Shown: positions 1,631-13,000, numbered from the stretch's first letter. The stretch is 64,000 bases of DNA from Eledone cirrhosa (GCA_964016885.1 OZ024743.1:377890001-377954000); one strand, 5' to 3'. Numbers and translations are program-made. Notes: generated from the letters alone by a model not told the origin.

Positions 1631-1951
1631 TAATAATAATGATAAATAAAAAATAAAATAAAAACTGTAATATGTTCAGCCCCGAAAAATGTACAACTCC
1701 TAGAACCTCAGTGGAACAGTATCAGAAAATACGATTGAAAATATTTCTCTGAATACAACAGACAAGACTGACAAATGATTGAATCATATTTCACAGAAAA
1801 GACAATTCATTGTAAATGCTAATAACTGCATCCTGTTATTTAACTGCTGTCAAACAACATAGTATCAGATTTTTTATTCATTAATTCAAATAAAAGGAAT
1901 GTACTAAAATTACTGTTATAAAACTCAATAATTTAAGCAATTCTGATCATA

Positions 1952-1998
1952 AACATACACACATATATACATATACACATATATATGTATATGCCCGT

Positions 1999-2071
<73 letters not shown>

Positions 2072-2100
2072 TATATATGTGTGCCAATACATATACATGC
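1952..2100. repeat. (TA)n/(CA)n microsatellite
   Basis: Direct reading. Confidence 0.95.
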
Positions 2101-2364
2101 ATAAGAAAGTGAGGAGTAACAAAAAAAGCTCAACTCTTGTTGAAAAAAACTTGAGTTTATTTGTTACTGAGCACAGCAACCATTATTTATCAAGTTGCAT
2201 GTGATCTGCTAACACACACATACAAGTGTGTGTGTGAGTGTATATATATATGGTGGCTGCAAACTCGTTTTCGAGTATGGCCACTACTTTATATCCGTGT
2301 AGGAGAACCCCTACCGATGCGCTGAACGGGTATATATATACACATACATACACACACATGTGAG

Positions 2365-2496
2365 TCCTGGGTTCAATTGGGGGGTAACCACAGGACTATA
2401 ACTGTTTCATAAAAAAAAATTCATCAGGTAAGCTTTCCTAATAATTTCTTTTGAAGGAAACAGTTTTAGTCCTATAGAAGCCATTTCTATATTAAA
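2365..2496. mobile_element. Family B fold-back element with two degenerate inverted hammerhead copies
   Basis: Minus-strand CTGATGA (2421-2427)...GAAACAG...CTGT; plus-strand CTAATAA...GAAACAG...TATA|GAAGCCATTTCTATATTAAA. Sequence is shared with the 32.6 kb and 62.4 kb copies. Confidence 0.55.
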
Positions 2497-2839
2497 CTTG
2501 ATGTATGTGTGTATGTATATGTATATATATATACTCAAATGTTCTAGAACAGATGCAAGTCAATGGTTGCAGGAAAAGCATAGATAGAAAAGGATGATAT
2601 TCTGGCAGAGGAAGATTATGGCAAAGTGTGTGTGGGAGGGGGTGCACAATATGGATGATGAGAGGAGGAGAGGCAAGTGAATCAAGAAAGCCTGAGTAAA
2701 GGTGAGACATAAAAAATGCACAGGTGAGAGAAAAGGCAAAGTGAGTAGACAACATATCTTAAGTCCACAGGCTGGAGTGTGTTTGACATTTATATATGAG
2801 TTTAGATACACACATATATACATGTGGGTATGTGTGCAT

Positions 2840-2976
2840 ATATATATTATATATATATAAATATATATTATATATTATATATATATAAATATATATTATA
2901 TATTATATATATATAAATATATATTATATATTATATATATATAAATATATATTATATATTATATATATATATATAT

Positions 2977-3033
<57 letters not shown>

Positions 3034-3093
3034 TATATATATATATTATATATTATATATTATATATATATATTATATATTATATATATATAT

Positions 3094-3146
<53 letters not shown>

Positions 3147-3353
3147 ATATATTATATATTATATATATATATATATTATATATATATATAAATATATATT
3201 ATATATTATATATATATATATATATAAATATAAATATATATTATATATTATATATATTATATATATATATATATAATATATATTATATATATATATAATA
3301 TATATTTTATATTATATATATATATATAATATATATTATATATATATATAATA

Positions 3354-3395
<42 letters not shown>

Positions 3396-3439
3396 TTATA
3401 TATATATATATATATATAATATATATATATATATAATTG

Positions 3440-3535
<96 letters not shown>

Positions 3536-3598
3536 TTTTATATATATATTTTATATATATATATATATATATAATATATATTATATATAATATATATG

Positions 3599-3638
<40 letters not shown>

Positions 3639-3654
3639 TTATATATATATATAA

Positions 3655-3685
<31 letters not shown>

Positions 3686-3701
3686 ATATATATTTTATAT
3701 A

Positions 3702-3744
<43 letters not shown>

Positions 3745-3781
3745 ATATATATATATATATACATATATATAATATATATTT

Positions 3782-3813
<32 letters not shown>

Positions 3814-3958
3814 ATATATATATTTTATATATATATATATATATATTTTATATATATATATATATATATTTTATATATATATATATATATTTTATATATA
3901 TATATATACACATGTATATACATATGTACATATATATATATATACGTACATGCATATA

Positions 3959-3998
<40 letters not shown>

Positions 3999-4022
3999 TA
4001 TATATATATATATATATATATG

Positions 4023-4076
<54 letters not shown>

Positions 4077-4258
4077 TACATATATATATATATATATATG
4101 TACATACATATATATGTACATACATATACATACATATATATGTACATACATATACATACATATATATATATGTGTACATGTATATACATATATATATATA
4201 TATATATGTACATGTATATACATATATATGTACATGTATATACATATATATATATATA
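2840..4258. repeat. ~1.4 kb compound (TA)n / TA-variant / (TATACA)-type microsatellite
   Basis: Direct reading; source of the spurious YIYI ORFs. Confidence 0.97.
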
Positions 4259-4406
4259 GATTTTGAGTTTATGTTGGTTGTATACCAACACCTCAGTATG
4301 CAGGCTGGAGCACTCGACGAAGTGCGCAGGTTGGTTTGGTTACTCCGGAGTAGTGTAAAATAAAGTTAAATAAAAGTCAAATGATTAAAATTTAGCTTCG
4401 TTTATT

Positions 4407-4461
4407 ACTGCTATATATATTTCAGTGACAGCCATCTTTGGCTGTGACCTCTTCAGGCAGT
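4407..4461 (-). ncRNA. Mirror copy of the type I hammerhead ribozyme motif
   Basis: Reverse complement of 5367-5421 in the left palindrome arm. Confidence 0.8.
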
Positions 4462-5366
4462 TTGAATTAGTATGGTATAGACAAGTACATATGTTGTTTA
4501 GGTGTATGATATTGTCAATACTCTGGTATGCCCAGTTCCTTGTTGGGTTGTTAATTCACTGGGGAACTGGAGTCATATGAATTCAAACAAACGAATTTTA
4601 GTGTCACAGGTCCCCTTCTCCTCTCATTGGTCAGTTATTAGTGTTGTCATTGTTGGAGTTAGCTTAAAAATTGATAAAATGGTAGAAGGGACAAGGTGTT
4701 GAAGGAACAAAATATCAAAAAATGTGTCAAACTTCCCATTGTTCAGTTCTGAGAGCATTCCTCAGTCAGAAGTCTATAGAATTCTTTCTGGGGTGAGGCT
4801 CCCTGTAGTGTTTATGCCTGCTATTGTTCAGTACATTTGACCTCCACCATTATTTTGGTACTGTTGTTGTTGTAGTGGTCAGCTTATATCTTGCTGCTGC
4901 TAACAATTTAGAAGTACTAAATTGTTAGCAGCAGCAAGATATAAGCTGACCACTACAACAACAACAGTACCAAAATAATGGTGGAGGTCAAATGTACTGA
5001 ACAATAGCAGGCATAAACACTACAGGGAGCCTCACCCCAGAAAGAATTCTATAGACTTCTGACTGAGGAATGCTCTCAGAACTGAACAATGGGAAGTTTG
5101 ACACATTTTTTGATATTTTGTTCCTTCAACACCTTGTCCCTTCTACCATTTTATCAATTTTTAAGCTAACTCCAACAATGACAACACTAATAACTGACCA
5201 ATGAGAGGAGAAGGGGACCTGTGACACTAAAATTCGTTTGTTTGAATTCATATGACTCCAGTTCCCCAGTGAATTAACAACCCAACAAGGAACTGGGCAT
5301 ACCAGAGTATTGACAATATCATACACCTAAACAACATATGTACTTGTCTATACCATACTAATTCAA

Positions 5367-5421
5367 ACTGCCTGAAGAGGTCACAGCCAAAGATGGCTGT
5401 CACTGAAATATATATAGCAGT
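5367..5421 (+). ncRNA. Type I minimal hammerhead ribozyme motif (Penelope/retrozyme type)
   Basis: ACTGC-CTGAAGA-[GGTCACAGCCA aaga TGGCTGTCACT]-GAAA-TATATA-TA|GCAGT. Core intact, stems I and II pair, palindromic stem III; AATAAA follows. Confidence 0.8.
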
Positions 5422-5465
5422 AATAAACGAAGCTAAATTTTAATCATTTGACTTTTATTTAACTT

Positions 5466-5506
<41 letters not shown>

Positions 5507-6544
5507 TGTATATACATATATATATATATGTACATGTATATACATATATGTATACACTTGTAGATATACGTATTAATCATCATTTTTACATCCCCTTTTC
5601 TGTACTGGCATCGGTTGGATAAGACCTTTGATGCAGTTTTTCCATAGCCAGATGCCCCTTCTGACACTAATCCATACTCTATTTTTAAATATGGCATATT
5701 CTGCTAAACTCTGTCACATTGAGTTGCAAGAAGTATCATATATGCAGGACATAAACTAACACCATTACTTGCATTAAATAGGGACGATATGAAGACATCT
5801 GCAACAACTCACACACGTACATATATCATCATCACCGTTTTACGTCCGTTCTTCCACGCTAGCATGGGTTATATATATATATATCATCCTCATCATCATC
5901 ACCATTTAACGTCCATTTCTCCATGCTTAAATGGGTCAGACGGGTCGTCCGCATCAAGAGATAAGTCTGGCCAGGATTGGCTACACCAATCTGACGGGAT
6001 TGTAAAGTTGGCCAGGGTTTTTACAGATGGATGCTCTTCCTAACACCAACCACATATATATGTATAGTAATTGGTAAAATTCTGACGGAGAGCTCACTCT
6101 GTTTTAGCTGGCCTGTGTTTCTGTGTGTGATGAGTTTCTGTCTACTAAATTTCACTCACAAGGCATTGGTAGAAGACATTTAGCCAAGGTTCCACACAAC
6201 AGGGTGGAACCTGAAACCACATGTTTGCAAAGCAAGTTTCTTGACCACACAGCCATGCCTATATAGTGGAATGTTTCATTCAAGGTTGCTACCAAATACA
6301 AGATTTGACCCCAATATGGTAACTGGGAGAGAAAACTGAAAACCTCTATGGTTGTAGAAATCAGGTCTCTGGTAAATGAGAAAATCTGACACCAAATCAG
6401 TGTTAAAAAAAAAATTATGGATAGTTGTTTCAGAACTAGTAGCTACTTTATTCTGATTATAAGGTTAATTATGTACCAATAATTATTGGCAAATTTTGTT
6501 TGTGACCAAATGTTTGGATAGTAATCTCCAAAATCTATTTGTCT

Positions 6545-9799: not shown

Positions 9800-10050
9800 T
9801 TAAGATTGACAACAAGTGTAGTTAGATACTGGAGTTGTCTCCCCAGAAGGAAAGGCTTTGTTGTTGTGAGGCCGAAGCTCATGAGCTTTAGCTTGTTTCG
9901 TCAGTTCTCGTGCAATATCAAAGAATAACTTTTCAACATTGTCAGCCTCTTTTGCAGATGTTTCAAGGAAAGTCATCTCATAACGGTTCGCAAACTGTTC
10001 TCCTATTGTAGTAGGTATTTCTCTGCGGTTTATCTGATCAATTTTGTTAC
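9800..10050 (-). CDS. RAB30: Rab30 last coding exon (NKID...ETSAK...CCQS*)
   Basis: Pyrimidine tract plus TAG acceptor; GNKxD and ETSAK motifs; TAA at 9800-9802. Confidence 0.93.
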
Positions 10051-13000
10051 CTACAAAGAAAAGGAAAAAGAAAAATGAAAAGAATTCACAATATCATCGT
10101 CATCACCATTTGACATCTATTTTTTATACTTGCATGGGTTTGACAGCTTGTCACGTTATGAGGCCAGATTAGATCAGGTGACCACATTTTACTCATACAC
10201 TCTGTTTAGGGTTTGATTTTCTATGGCTGGGTACCCTTTACAGTGTGTACTGGGAGCTTTTTTTGTGGCACTAGCACTCCCACCTTATGGTGGACTAGTG
10301 CTTTTTGTTATGACACTAACATTACCACATTATAGGTTGTATTGGGTGCTTTTTGTCATGACACCAATATAAACTGTCTTACAGATACAATAAAGATATT
10401 TTCCAAAATGTAATTGCAAGACACATGTATCCATAACATAATTTGTGTGATACAGCATGTAACAAAGCTGGCCCTTTGAATTACAGCTTCCATCCATCGG
10501 ACAGGCTTCTAAACAATTTCTGTCTCCTCAATTTCACTCACAAGTCATGGTTCATCACAAAGCTATGGTAGATTACACTTGCCCAAGATGCCAAACAGTG
10601 GGATTAAACCAGGGACCTAATGACTGTGAAGCAAACCCCTTAATAATTCGACCATTCTACATCCACTATCATAATAATATAATAATAATTGTTTATACTT
10701 TTAGCACAAGGCCAGCAATTATCCAGTACATTACTGGTACTTTATTTTATCGACCCCGTAAGGATGAAAGGCAAAGTTAACCTCGTCGGGATTTGAACTC
10801 AGATCATAAAGAGACGTGACTCTATGCTTCAAAGCATGGTGTCCGACTCTCTACCGATACTGCCAATCCACCGCCCTATAATAATATAATAATATGAAAA
10901 TTATTGCGTACAGTGCTCAGGTGCACTACAACTCATCAAAGGTTCATGCATAGTACATAGAATAATGTACAAATGTCAGGAAAGTGAACAGTGCACGAGT
11001 CATGATATACAAACGTGCATACGTGTGTATGTACAGGGAATATCAGGTGTAGTGTTGGCAAATTTCAGGAAGAATGGAACAACATCATAAAATGTTGTTT
11101 GGCATAAAAGAGAGCTTTTTTTCTAATTCTCATTTAATGATTTCACAAAAAGGCACATATTTGGTTCATGTAAACCATCACACATTTTTCAAAATAACCG
11201 AAAGAAATAATTTATTCAATATCAACAAAAGAGGGAACGTATGAAAAGAAAAGAAATGTTTTTCTTTCTATATATGCACCCAATACAGACTGTAAAGTGT
11301 TTAGTAATCAAACAGAGAGGGCTTATATGTATTTCTCAAGTCAATGATATTATCACTGATGACTAAGATTTACAAAGATATTTGGAAATTAATTCAGAAA
11401 GTAATTTACCCAGCTAGATAGTAGTGGCAGTGCCACAATAAAACACACCCAGTACACTCTGTAAGGTAGTTGACATTAGGAAGGGCATCTAACCATAGAA
11501 ACCTTGCTAAAAAATGGAATGTACAAGGGAGACATGATCCTCTGATGGCAGTGACCTCAAGTATTCAGACTGTAACATGTCCGACCCATGCCAACATAGA
11601 AAGTAGATGAACATTTGTTAATAAATATTGTATCTGGCACAACTCATTATAGTCACCAATATCTGAAAGAAATTGAATTACAATATAACAGCCCTTCCCA
11701 ATCTGATCAAGGACACACTCATTAAAGCTCCAACATCTGGCAAGTGACTTAGTACGCACCCACAAGATTATTAACCATCTTTTCAACAACCCTCGGCACC
11801 ATTTTGAATTCTGAATGTCTAACATTTGTGGACATGCGTACAAAATCTGAAAACAGTACAGTTCCCATGACTTTCGGAAACATATTTCATGCTCAGAGTT
11901 GCTGAAGCATGGAACAAACTACCTGCATCAGTTGTTAGCTGTCAGGACACTGCATCCTTCAAGACATCCATGCTTCTCGAAATTCGCCAACACTGCACCT
12001 GATATTCCCCTCCATACACATGCAGGCATGTGTATGTGTGTGTCTGTGTGTATATCATGGCTCATACACTGTTCATTTTCCTGACATACATTATTCTATG
12101 TACTATACATGCACCTTTGATGAGTTTTAGTGCACCTGAGCACAATAATTTTCATTATTATTATTAACATAACAACCTTTCTAACTTAAGCAAGCATGAA
12201 AAATGAATATCAAATAGTGATGATGATATCTCATATATGGAGTAGTTCAAATTACTTCTACTTTTTTAAAATCTATTAATAATATTTTTGTTAAATTAAG
12301 ACAGAGAAACAACTGTTTACAATGAAGGTTTTTCATAGTTTCTCAAACTAGATGTCATTTATGAATTTTCTTTTTTTTTTTCAAGTGAAATAACTGTAGG
12401 AATATTTTAACAGATAGAAGTATTCAATATTGAAAGTATTTATTTAAATTAAAATAATAAACATGAAGAAAAGAGGAAGAAGGGGAAGAGAGGGGGAAAA
12501 CTTTACATTCTTGTGGGGTGGTATATATCAGCTGTGTCCTGTGGACAATATGACAGAAACATTGCCACAGAGAACAGCCAGTGATATCTGCTGCATCAAC
12601 CATACAACCTTACAGGGCTTCTTCCTCAGGCAGGATGTACTCTTCCCAACTTTGTGGAAGAAAATGGTAATCCAAGAGCCAAGGACACAACAGGTCTTGA
12701 CAGCAACTGGCACAAAAAGGAAGCAGTTAGTTAAAGCCTGATTCTGCTCCTCTGCTGGTTAGTGGCCAAAGTGATGAAACTGACAACAGAGAACATTTTA
12801 CAGCATGTGGCATCCCAGATTAGTGATTCCCCCTCCCTCAAAAGGGAAAACGGTTGTCCAATTTAGCCACCTACTACCAGTGATTCACCCTCCCTCAAAC
12901 AGGAAAAGGGTTATCCAATCTCTGATCGATCGACAAGATCCCAGACCTCATTCGCTTGCCGAGTAGGGTGGACCTCATCAAATCAGACCAAGGAAACAAT

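What the first reader, a model, noticed from the sequence alone, without database searches (positions are those of the whole stretch)
4260..5472. Apparently perfect 1.1 kb palindrome with two outward-facing intact hammerhead motifs
Seen: 556-bp arms with no mismatch I could find, a 5-nt spacer and (TA)n on both sides. The left unit extends ~95 bp further (4260-4355). Each arm has an intact CUGAAGA/GAAA core, a palindromic AUAUAUAU stem III, predicted cleavage after AUA (5416) and an AATAAA right after stem I. Established: such minimal hammerheads usually cleave as dimers, and long perfect palindromes are unstable (cruciforms). Inference: a very young insertion or one homogenised by arm-to-arm conversion. 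Read-through from Rab30, whose stop is ~4.3 kb away, would give a ~550-bp dsRNA hairpin (ADAR/Dicer substrate) that also masks the ribozyme.
Basis: partly seen in the sequence, partly recalled or inferred. Interest (0 to 1): 0.75.

Follow-up and report, generated by a model that had tools for sequence, protein, structure and literature searches.

The report
Mirror-image Penelope retroelement insertion with hammerheads
This perfect 1.1-kb palindrome is one young insertion of a very abundant Penelope-like jumping gene: two mirror-image copies of its ribozyme-bearing end, likely made by copying the element's RNA from both cut ends of the target DNA, which is an ordinary and already described kind of footprint.

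Summary
The arms are 4356-4911 and 4917-5472, 556 nt each and 100% complementary. Both flanks are (TA)n, and a 96-nt extension lies on the left (4260-4355).

It is not a stand-alone ribozyme palindrome. It is a minimal insertion of a young Penelope-like element (PLE) of about 4.1 kb, present in at least about 1,600 copies in this 3.0-Gb genome.
- The two arms are 5'-truncated pseudo-LTR (pLTR) pieces of 561 and 556 nt, joined head to head.
- The "5-nt spacer" belongs to the left copy.
- The left extension is the family's optional tail. It sits at exactly one end in 12 of 15 fully visible pairs.
- Head-to-head pairs are the rule: 11 of 11 close pairs in one search, and 16 against 0 in another.

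The hammerhead is the PLE "minimal" type.
- About 16,700 motif matches occur in the genome, against 3 in the control.
- Helices I and II covary across three families.
- The window copy has G.U at 10.1-11.1, and no Rfam model matches it.

All of this architecture is in print. The scan has also noted it on other DNA (293 notes, at least 35 genomes).

No independent read was found that bridges this locus's centre, and RNA data were lacking. Interest is low.

The parts
3500..4259 (.). (TA)n-rich compound microsatellite, left part of the insertion target
   Evidence: families D1/D2. The same GTACATGTATATACA-interrupted TA repeat lies right of the insert.
4260..4355 (-). 96-nt optional 'tail' of the left copy. 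It is the element sequence that follows the main 3' end in full units.
   Evidence: 96/96 or 93-96 nt at 98-100% identity directly after ref 3396 in other loci; in more-than-unit copies it continues into the 5' UTR and ORF.
4356..4916 (-). Left 5'-truncated pLTR copy, 561 nt (ref 2836-3396)
   Evidence: BLAST to the long copy of L013, 99.8% over 561 nt. The copy includes the 5 'spacer' bases.
4917..5472 (+). Right 5'-truncated pLTR copy, 556 nt (ref 2841-3396), without tail
4407..4461 (-). Minimal type I hammerhead motif of the left copy. Cleavage is predicted after 4412 on the - strand.
   Evidence: Mirror of 5367-5421. Motif family tested.
5367..5421 (+). Minimal type I hammerhead motif of the right copy. 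Cleavage is predicted after 5416.
   Evidence: Sequence. Covariation in helices I and II. The minimum-free-energy fold of 5360-5432 equals helices I+II, -16.7 kcal/mol. No Rfam match.
5422..5427 (+). AATAAA just after helix I. A hexamer at this place is kept in all three hammerhead families seen.
   Evidence: listing (families A, B, C). Function not tested.
5473..5556 (.). (TA)n-rich microsatellite, right part of the insertion target
9800..10093 (-). Rab30-like last coding exon. Its stop is about 4.3 kb upstream of the palindrome in the gene's direction.
   Evidence: Pfam Ras 1.8e-12; best PDB match Rab-30, 4.2e-13.

Best explanation
The palindrome is a single insertion of a young, high-copy, endonuclease-bearing Penelope-like retroelement (PLE) into a (TA)n microsatellite, and its two arms were likely made at insertion by target-primed reverse transcription from both cut strands.

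Shown here:
- The insertion consists only of two 5'-truncated copies of the element's pseudo-LTR (561 and 556 nt), joined head to head with their 3' ends outward.
- One copy carries the family's optional 96-nt tail.
- The arms match a roughly 4.1-kb unit laid out as pLTR with hammerhead, tail, 5' UTR, an RT/GIY-YIG-type ORF, then pLTR.
- Head-to-head pairing, a tail at one end and TA-repeat targets are family-wide.
- The hammerhead is a structure-conserved PLE-type minimal motif.

Inferred:
- The element's protein cuts both strands of the AT-rich target.
- Each 3' end primes reverse transcription of the element RNA, at one of two internal start sites. These sites are the main 3' end and the end of the tail.
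- The two cDNAs are joined where they stop.
- Here both stopped at ref 2836/2841, a recurrent 5' end. That gives an almost symmetric palindrome whose arms are identical because they are new copies of the same RNA species.
- The hammerhead belongs to the element's own RNA life cycle. It is not evidence that the palindrome has a function.
For: Family size: the 556-nt arm has 1,644 first-look candidates in the own genome. 40 were scored, and 41 of the 43 listed matches cover 1-556 at about 100% identity.

Orientation:
- 22 of the 43 matches form 11 '- then +' pairs, and none form '+ then -' pairs.
- Among the 100 listed hammerhead matches, I count 16 '- then +' neighbours within 2 kb and 0 '+ then -'.

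Junctions: arms of other pairs are truncated at different points. Junctions are blunt, show 1-9 nt of overlap, or hold up to 28 nt of filler.

Tail: exactly one arm has the 96-nt tail in 12 of 15 pairs whose two outer ends were visible. Both arms have it in 3 of 15, and neither in 0.

Unit structure: five loci read pLTR...3396 / tail 96 / 98 nt / 540-nt 5' region / ORF body. The tail is therefore simply the next stretch of the unit.

ORF:
- It has YRDD and a C-terminal Cys-rich plus GIY-YIG-like region, read by eye.
- There are 870 homologues at E<=1e-5. The best is a Solemya velum protein carrying PF01541 GIY-YIG and PF26215, at 1.1e-167.
- The nearest Atlas clusters combine HTH_animal, RVT_1 and GIY-YIG (0.95-0.97).

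Hammerhead:
- The pattern has 8,398 + 8,346 matches against 1 + 2 in the control.
- On 24 distinct sequences, 92.8% of cells are paired against at most 55.4% when the 3' partners are slid by 1-3 columns. 10 of 15 pairs change on both sides. 0 of 500 shuffles reach the observed paired share or covariation score; 28 of 500 reach the observed number of pairs changed on both sides, and 496 of 500 reach the number of further pair types.

Reads: RAD-seq reads and contigs of the same species show the 5'-truncation depth gradient. They also show head-to-head joints of other pairs, for example 4572->5248 in 24 and 13 reads.

Literature:
- Inverted 5'-truncated copy, tail at one end, (TA)n targets and hammerheads in pLTRs: PMC8557442, passages.
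- Inverted pLTR plus tail, and palindromes at junctions: PMC3846280, passages.
- A PLE protein cleaves and extends both strands, and two RT start sites bracket the tail: PMC11167929, main text.
- Paired minimal hammerheads 100-700 bp apart on opposite strands: PMC4209133, parts 1-2.
Against: - Pfam finds no RVT_1 or GIY-YIG domain in the element's own ORF, even at E<=10. The RT/EN assignment therefore rests on homologues, Atlas neighbours and motifs read by eye.
- No Rfam hammerhead model matches.
- The window copy has G.U instead of the conserved G10.1-C11.1, plus a C.C mismatch in helix II.
- The tail is 96 nt, not the 30-40 nt described.
- No target-site duplication can be read in a TA repeat.
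- No independent contig bridges this locus's own centre.
- The both-strand priming step is inferred from one in vitro study of a lizard element. It was not shown for this family.
- The covariation rests on three lineages only, and the catalytic boxes were fixed by my search pattern.
Confidence: 0.9

Rival explanations
1. Same element, different way of making the mirror half. The first cDNA folds back and primes on itself (snap-back or self-priming, or use of an antisense template), so the second arm is a copy of the first arm, not an independent second priming event.
For: Arkhipova et al. 2013 (PMC3846280, discussion passage) read palindromes at inverted junctions as self-priming. The window junction is blunt and nearly symmetric. 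Near-symmetric junctions recur at the same element position in four other loci. Many short near-symmetric joints appear in contigs.
Against: A simple fold-back copy should reproduce the first arm's outer end. Yet 12 of 15 pairs have the tail on one arm only. Most pairs are strongly asymmetric, for example 2803|449 and 3152|2836. The recurrent 5' end at ref 2836 also occurs on one arm alone (L018). That fits a common RNA end better than a hairpin turn.
Confidence: 0.2
2. Assembly artefact. A fold-back chimeric long read or a collapsed repeat created a palindrome that is not in the animal's DNA.
For: No contig of runs X1-X3 bridges the centre; pieces stop at 4916 or start at 4917 or later. Palindromes and PLE structures are known to trouble assemblies (PMC8557442 passage).
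Against: - The structure is asymmetric in the way the biology predicts: a tail on one side only and a 5-nt offset.
- It lies inside a 379-Mb contig with different flanks on the two sides.
- A second locus, C4:347129590, has the mirror-image architecture, 563 and 557 nt with one tail.
- Head-to-head joints of sister insertions are seen in RAD-seq raw reads of other individuals.
- The missing bridge is weak evidence, because a single-copy junction need not survive in these short contigs.
Confidence: 0.03
3. A DNA-level palindrome. A single pLTR insertion was later duplicated in inverted orientation, or two old copies were homogenised by gene conversion.
For: The arms show 100% identity.
Against: The '- then +' arrangement with outward 3' ends is family-wide, with a different junction at each locus: 11 of 11 close pairs, and 16 against 0. 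Identity is expected for arms made together in a family whose copies are 98.6-100% alike.
Confidence: 0.03
4. A host hairpin-RNA gene (miRNA or siRNA precursor), or a non-LTR retrozyme that makes circular RNA.
For: Rfam miRNA-precursor models score on the palindrome centre, for example MIR2630 at 111 bits.
Against: All those scores are below the families' gathering thresholds (111 against 144, 82 against 110) and come from any long perfect hairpin. Retrozymes are head-to-tail tandem hammerhead repeats, going by the abstracts of PMC7229834 (listing) and 10.64898/2026.07.22.740005. This structure is inverted and belongs to an autonomous element.
Confidence: 0.02

Closest known systems
Insertion units of EN+ Penelope-like elements with an inverted 5'-truncated pLTR and an optional tail (Arkhipova et al. 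2013, PMC3846280; Craig et al. 2021, PMC8557442)
   Same: Head-to-head inverted 5'-truncated copy. Tail at one end. pLTR formed by more-than-unit copies. AT-rich or (TA)n target. Hammerhead in the pLTR. Frequent 5' truncation.
   Different: The tail is 96 nt here, against 30-40 nt described. This locus holds no ORF at all, only two pLTR stumps. The PLE clade of the family was not resolved. Pfam does not recognise its RT or EN.
Minimal hammerheads of metazoan PLEs (Cervera and de la Pena 2014, PMC4209133)
   Same: CUGANGA and GAAA boxes, short helix I (5 bp), long helix II, small palindromic helix III (AUAUAUAU), massive copy number, and pairs on opposite strands 100-700 bp apart.
   Different: Helix II is 10-11 bp with a conserved C.C mismatch. 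The window copy has G.U at 10.1-11.1; 14 of the 24 distinct family sequences have G-C there. Cleavage was not tested.
Poseidon PAc of Anolis carolinensis, studied in vitro (Frangieh et al. 2024, PMC11167929)
   Same: It gives the mechanism used here: cleavage and extension of both target strands, AT-rich cut sites, two internal RT start sites that bracket the tail, and a hammerhead just upstream of the RT start.
   Different: It is a different host and family. In PAc the hammerhead overlaps the ORF start. Here the ATG lies about 421 nt after the predicted cleavage site. Nothing was measured for this family.
Non-LTR retrozymes of animals (PMC7229834, search listing and start of abstract only; Li et al. 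2026 bioRxiv 10.64898/2026.07.22.740005, abstract and outline only)
   Same: Type I hammerheads related to PLE pLTRs. Non-coding short units.
   Different: Retrozymes are head-to-tail tandem repeats thought to give circular RNA. This is an inverted pair made by an autonomous element.

Membership tests
EN+ Penelope-like element (insertion unit) | Full-length relatives encode RT plus GIY-YIG endonuclease in one ORF: direct domain match | tested here: not met
   Pfam on the 698-aa uninterrupted ORF part of L013 and on the 510-aa N-terminal part of L030 gave no RVT_1 or GIY-YIG hit, even at E<=10.
EN+ Penelope-like element (insertion unit) | Full-length relatives encode RT plus GIY-YIG endonuclease: homologues and motifs | tested here: met
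   870 homologues at E<=1e-5. The best carries PF01541 GIY-YIG and PF26215 HTH_animal. Atlas neighbours combine HTH_animal, RVT_1 and GIY-YIG at 0.95-0.97. YRDD and a C-terminal Cys-rich plus 'IVYGC...YIGAT' stretch were read by eye.
EN+ Penelope-like element (insertion unit) | Pseudo-LTR from more-than-unit (partial tandem) copies | tested here: met
   Five loci (L069, L072, L074, L078, L079) read pLTR end / tail / 98 nt / 5' region / ORF.
EN+ Penelope-like element (insertion unit) | Inverted 5'-truncated copy abutting the 5' end | tested here: met
   Window: 2836|2841. There are 19 other distinct junctions. 11 of 11 close pairs are '- then +'. 16 against 0.
EN+ Penelope-like element (insertion unit) | Optional tail, usually at one end only | tested here: met
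   The 96-nt tail is on one arm in 12 of 15 pairs. The length differs from the published 30-40 bp.
EN+ Penelope-like element (insertion unit) | AT-rich or microsatellite target, with a short target-site duplication | tested here: inconclusive
   (TA)n flanks are present at the window and at the other loci. A duplication cannot be read inside a TA repeat.
Hammerhead ribozyme, PLE minimal type I | Catalytic core C3 U4 G5 A6 N7 G8 A9 ... G12 A13 A14, an A15.1-U16.1 pair, and H17 that is not G | tested here: met
   Read from 5372-5378, 5405-5408, 5415 and 5416.
Hammerhead ribozyme, PLE minimal type I | Helices I and II kept by compensatory change | tested here: met
   92.8% of cells paired, 10 of 15 pairs changed on both sides, at most 55.4% when slid. 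Three lineages only.
Hammerhead ribozyme, PLE minimal type I | Conserved G10.1-C11.1 pair | tested here: not met
   The window copy has G5379.U5404. 14 of 24 distinct family sequences have G-C. The T>C variant at 5404 makes up about 20-40% of family depth.
Hammerhead ribozyme (Rfam models) | Match to an Rfam hammerhead covariance model | tested here: not met
   No hammerhead family at E<=1 or at E<=10 on 5345-5445.
Hammerhead ribozyme, PLE minimal type I | Self-cleavage, as monomer, as dimer or with the element's protein | not testable with these tools
   No assay was possible and no RNA run was listed.
Non-LTR retrozyme | Head-to-tail tandem repeats of a hammerhead unit | tested here: not met
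   The two motifs are inverted. Neighbouring motifs in the genome are '- then +'.

The most novel reading that the evidence does not exclude
The centres of these palindromes are a natural record of RNA ends. The element makes a short pLTR RNA with a discrete 5' end at ref 2836, and another near ref 3175. Both cut target strands copy this RNA to its very end, so near-perfect palindromes form again and again at the same element position. If so, thousands of such junctions in one genome would map the transcription start sites and the two-strand priming of Penelope-like elements without any experiment.
Probability: 0.35. Interest if true: 0.4.

Novelty: new member of a known kind. Interest (0 to 1): 0.15.

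Why it matters
It matters little as a discovery, because the architecture is textbook for Penelope-like elements and the scan has met it many times. It is useful in three ways.
- As annotation, it shows that a striking ribozyme palindrome near Rab30 is transposon debris.
- It warns that about 16,700 hammerhead motifs in this genome come from these elements.
- It is raw material for the still unsettled question of how these elements build their mirror halves. The relevant signals are a tail on one arm only, blunt or microhomology junctions, and recurrent 5' ends.

Tried and rejected
- Rfam: no hammerhead match. The sub-threshold miRNA-precursor hits are generic hairpin matches and were rejected.
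- Pfam on the element ORF: no RT or EN domain.
- Own-genome search with the 96-nt tail: nothing found, not even the window itself. It is uninformative, so the tail was traced by BLAST in fetched loci instead.
- Sequencing runs: no RNA holder listed, so expression, editing, small RNAs and cleavage ends could not be examined.
- Reads on 4865-4963: no contig of X1-X3 bridges the centre, and run X5 (another organism label) laid nothing. This does not show absence.
- Whether RAD-seq reads cover this locus's junction could not be told from the family pile-up.
- Earlier findings by place: nothing.
- I considered a promoter reading of the depth step near 5248 (a CCAAT and an A/T-rich box upstream, by eye). 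I left it as a lead.
- The clade of the element (Neptune, Nematis, Poseidon or Hydra) was not resolved.
- Supplementary files of the cited papers were not opened. The family lists in supplementary file S1 of PMC8557442, and the hammerhead alignments of PMC4209133, could show whether this family is already catalogued.

Full report
OBSERVATION. The inverted repeat is exactly as described. The arms are 4356-4911 and 4917-5472, 556 nt each, 100% complementary, with 5 nt between them. Both sides are a TA-rich compound microsatellite with the same GTACATGTATATACA interruptions.

The hammerhead boxes are present on each arm, facing outward. On the right arm:
- helix I 5367-5371/5417-5421
- CUGAAGA 5372-5378
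- helix II 5379-5404
- GAA 5405-5407
- AUAUAUAU 5408-5415
- A17 at 5416
- AATAAA 5422-5427

The left-arm mirror copy is at 4407-4461 on the - strand.

A Rab30-like last exon lies on the - strand at 9800-10093. Its stop is 4,328 nt from the palindrome, and transcription runs towards it.

WHAT IT BELONGS TO. The arm is a very abundant, very young repeat of the window's own 3.0-Gb genome.
- It has 1,644 first-look candidates. 40 were scored, and 41 of the 43 listed matches cover all 556 nt at about 100% identity.
- 22 of those 43 matches form 11 '- then +' pairs with inner distances from 3 to 3,878 nt. None form '+ then -' pairs.

I fetched longer pairs and used the long copy in L013 as a yardstick. 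Ref 1 is L013 5313, and the element's 3' end is ref 3396.
- Every pair is two copies with their 3' ends outward and their 5' ends truncated at different points. Examples are 2803|449, 2797|2302, 1|1803, 3152|2836 and -226|2942.
- They are joined bluntly, with 1-9 nt of overlap, or with up to 28 nt of filler.
- In the window the left copy runs ref 2836-3396 (561 nt) and the right copy ref 2841-3396 (556 nt). The '5-nt spacer' is therefore simply the end of the left copy.

THE LEFT EXTENSION IS THE ELEMENT'S TAIL. The 96 nt at 4260-4355 occur at 98-100% identity directly after ref 3396 in other loci.
- Among 15 pairs whose two outer ends were inside the fetched DNA, exactly one arm has the tail in 12. 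Both arms have it in 3, and neither in 0.
- In five loci with more-than-unit copies the order is pLTR end (to ref 3396), tail (96 nt), 98 nt, a 540-nt 5' region, then the ORF body.
- The tail is therefore the next stretch of a roughly 4,130-nt unit. The region from the ORF stop (ref 2097) to ref 3396 behaves as a pseudo-LTR.

THE ORF.
- It is about 821 codons, with its ATG at L030 5501 and its stop at ref 2097.
- By eye it shows a YRDD reverse-transcriptase motif and a C-terminal Cys-rich plus GIY-YIG-like stretch.
- Pfam does not recognise it.
- It has 870 homologues at E<=1e-5. The best are mollusc proteins carrying GIY-YIG and HTH_animal domains.
- Its nearest Atlas clusters combine HTH_animal, RVT_1 and GIY-YIG.

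THE HAMMERHEAD.
- No Rfam model matches.
- The motif CTGANGAG-N24-26-GAAATATATATA occurs 8,398 + 8,346 times in the genome, against 1 + 2 for the reversed control.
- Among the 100 places listed there, I count 16 '- then +' neighbours within 2 kb and no '+ then -' neighbours.
- At least three families share the boxes but differ in helices I and II.
- I aligned 24 distinct sequences, with exact duplicates and several near-identical copies among the 30 loci left out (29 distinct motifs). On that alignment, 92.8% of cells pair, against at most 55.4% when the partner is slid. 10 of 15 pairs change on both sides. 0 of 500 shuffles reach the observed paired share or covariation score; 28 of 500 reach the number of pairs changed on both sides, and 496 of 500 reach the number of further pair types.
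- Caveats: there are three lineages only, and the boxes were fixed by my pattern.
- A C.C mismatch at the fourth pair of helix II is kept in all three families.
- The window copy has G.U at 10.1-11.1. 14 of the 24 sequences have G-C, and the T>C variant at 5404 makes up about 20-40% of family depth in reads.
- The minimum-free-energy fold of 5360-5432 is exactly helices I+II (-16.7 kcal/mol). Two copies are predicted to pair through the 8-nt AUAUAUAU.
- These traits match the minimal hammerheads of metazoan Penelope-like elements (PLEs): long helix II, short helix I, small palindromic helix III, low activity in vitro, probably dimeric. That paper also notes paired motifs 100-700 bp apart on opposite strands (PMC4209133, parts 1-2 read).

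READS.
- Contigs and RAD-seq reads of the same species label pile up on the stretch at family depth. Depth rises towards the 3' end, with a roughly ten-fold step near 5248/4578 and a peak over the hammerhead block.
- Most RAD reads fit only an ~80-nt block (5360-5439) and then run into unlike sequence. The hammerhead block is therefore shared by many diverged elements.
- Head-to-head joints of other, shorter pairs are seen in contigs and in raw reads of two individuals, for example 4572->5248 in 24 and 13 reads.
- For this locus's own centre, no contig of X1-X3 bridges 4916/4917. The locus is therefore not independently confirmed. The asymmetric tail, the interior position in a 379-Mb contig and a sister locus with the mirror architecture all argue against an artefact. 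That sister locus is C4:347129590, with 563 and 557 nt and one tail.

A RECURRENT JUNCTION POSITION. Searching the genome with the window's centre found other loci whose two arms also meet at ref 2834-2844:
- C421:73204 (2836|2836, with extra nested pieces)
- C4:347129590 (2834|2840)
- C1:66019131 (2844|2838, an older pair whose two arms are about 93% and 98% like the yardstick)
- C10:46856443 (2836, with a short partner)

These loci were selected for resemblance to the window. L018 was found independently, and one of its arms also starts at ref 2836, opposite a partner starting at 3152. This points to a preferred 5' end, possibly an RNA end. I could not test that.

MECHANISM. The shown steps are the anatomy above. 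The inferred steps come from the literature.
- A purified PLE protein cleaves and extends both strands of an AT-rich target. It starts reverse transcription at two internal sites that bracket the tail (PMC11167929, main text read).
- The inverted 5'-truncated copy, the one-sided tail, (TA)n targets and hammerheads in pLTRs are listed as PLE hallmarks (PMC8557442 passages; PMC3846280 passages).
- Two cDNAs primed from the two cut ends and joined where they stop explain the outward 3' ends, the independent truncation points and the tail on one arm.
- A simple fold-back copy of the first cDNA, the self-priming idea of PMC3846280, fits the symmetry. It does not fit the one-sided tail.
- Identity of the arms needs no gene conversion.

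A transcript through both arms would fold into a 556-bp hairpin (-1033 kcal/mol) and bury the ribozyme. The geometry for Rab30 read-through is right. No RNA run was available, so this remains untested.

COMPARISON AND NOVELTY. Every structural feature is already described for endonuclease-bearing PLEs. Earlier notes of this scan report the same kind of palindrome on other DNA (293 notes in at least 35 genomes). Those notes agree with this reading but are not independent evidence. Particular to this family are:
- a 96-nt tail
- a conserved C.C mismatch in helix II
- the recurrent junction at ref 2836
- a very large, very young copy population

Verdict: a real feature, an ordinary member of a known kind, of low interest.

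Noticed in passing
window 5382/5401 (mirror 4427/4446); alignment A1 columns 19/39: A C.C mismatch at the fourth pair of hammerhead helix II is kept in all three helix-II families, although the pairs around it covary. It may be a protein or tertiary contact.
   Followed up: partly
window 5422-5427 and loci L032-L061: An AATAAA-like hexamer directly after helix I is present in all three hammerhead families: gcagtAATAAAcg, gcagtaAATAAAgg, atagAATAAAta. Whether it is a polyadenylation signal or part of the RT start region is unknown.
   Followed up: no
window about 5248-5270 (mirror about 4558-4578): Family read depth rises about ten-fold here, and many contig joints of short, near-symmetric pairs end here. 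This suggests a second, much commoner 5' end near ref 3175. By eye, a CCAAT and an A/T-rich box lie about 50 and about 22 nt upstream.
   Followed up: partly
coded runs X5-X16: Runs under 12 other organism labels, from 11 further studies, hold 5-51% of the sampled 31-letter words of 4260-5472. Near-identical pieces of the element are therefore present beyond the window's species label. These could be close relatives, shared conserved blocks or transfer. X5 laid nothing on the centre.
   Followed up: partly
L030 (G000:C4:287388000-287397999), about 2560 and 5330: Two neighbouring composites share the identical junction 3102|-540. This points to a local duplication of an already inserted pair, not to two insertions.
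   Followed up: no
L063 (G000:C421:71704-74825), 1263-1562: At this palindromic junction the minus arm's 5' terminal 100-200 nt is present twice (ref 3037-2840, then 2938-2836), as if the polymerase switched template repeatedly.
   Followed up: no
window 5825-5936: Two 45-nt direct repeats, 80% alike and 67 nt apart (ATCATCATCACC...GCTAGCATGGGT type; family D3). They may be pieces of a SINE-like repeat.
   Followed up: no
window 1890-4259: More than 2 kb of almost uninterrupted TA, TATG and CA microsatellite lies left of the insertion. This is a large target for TA-seeking elements.
   Followed up: no
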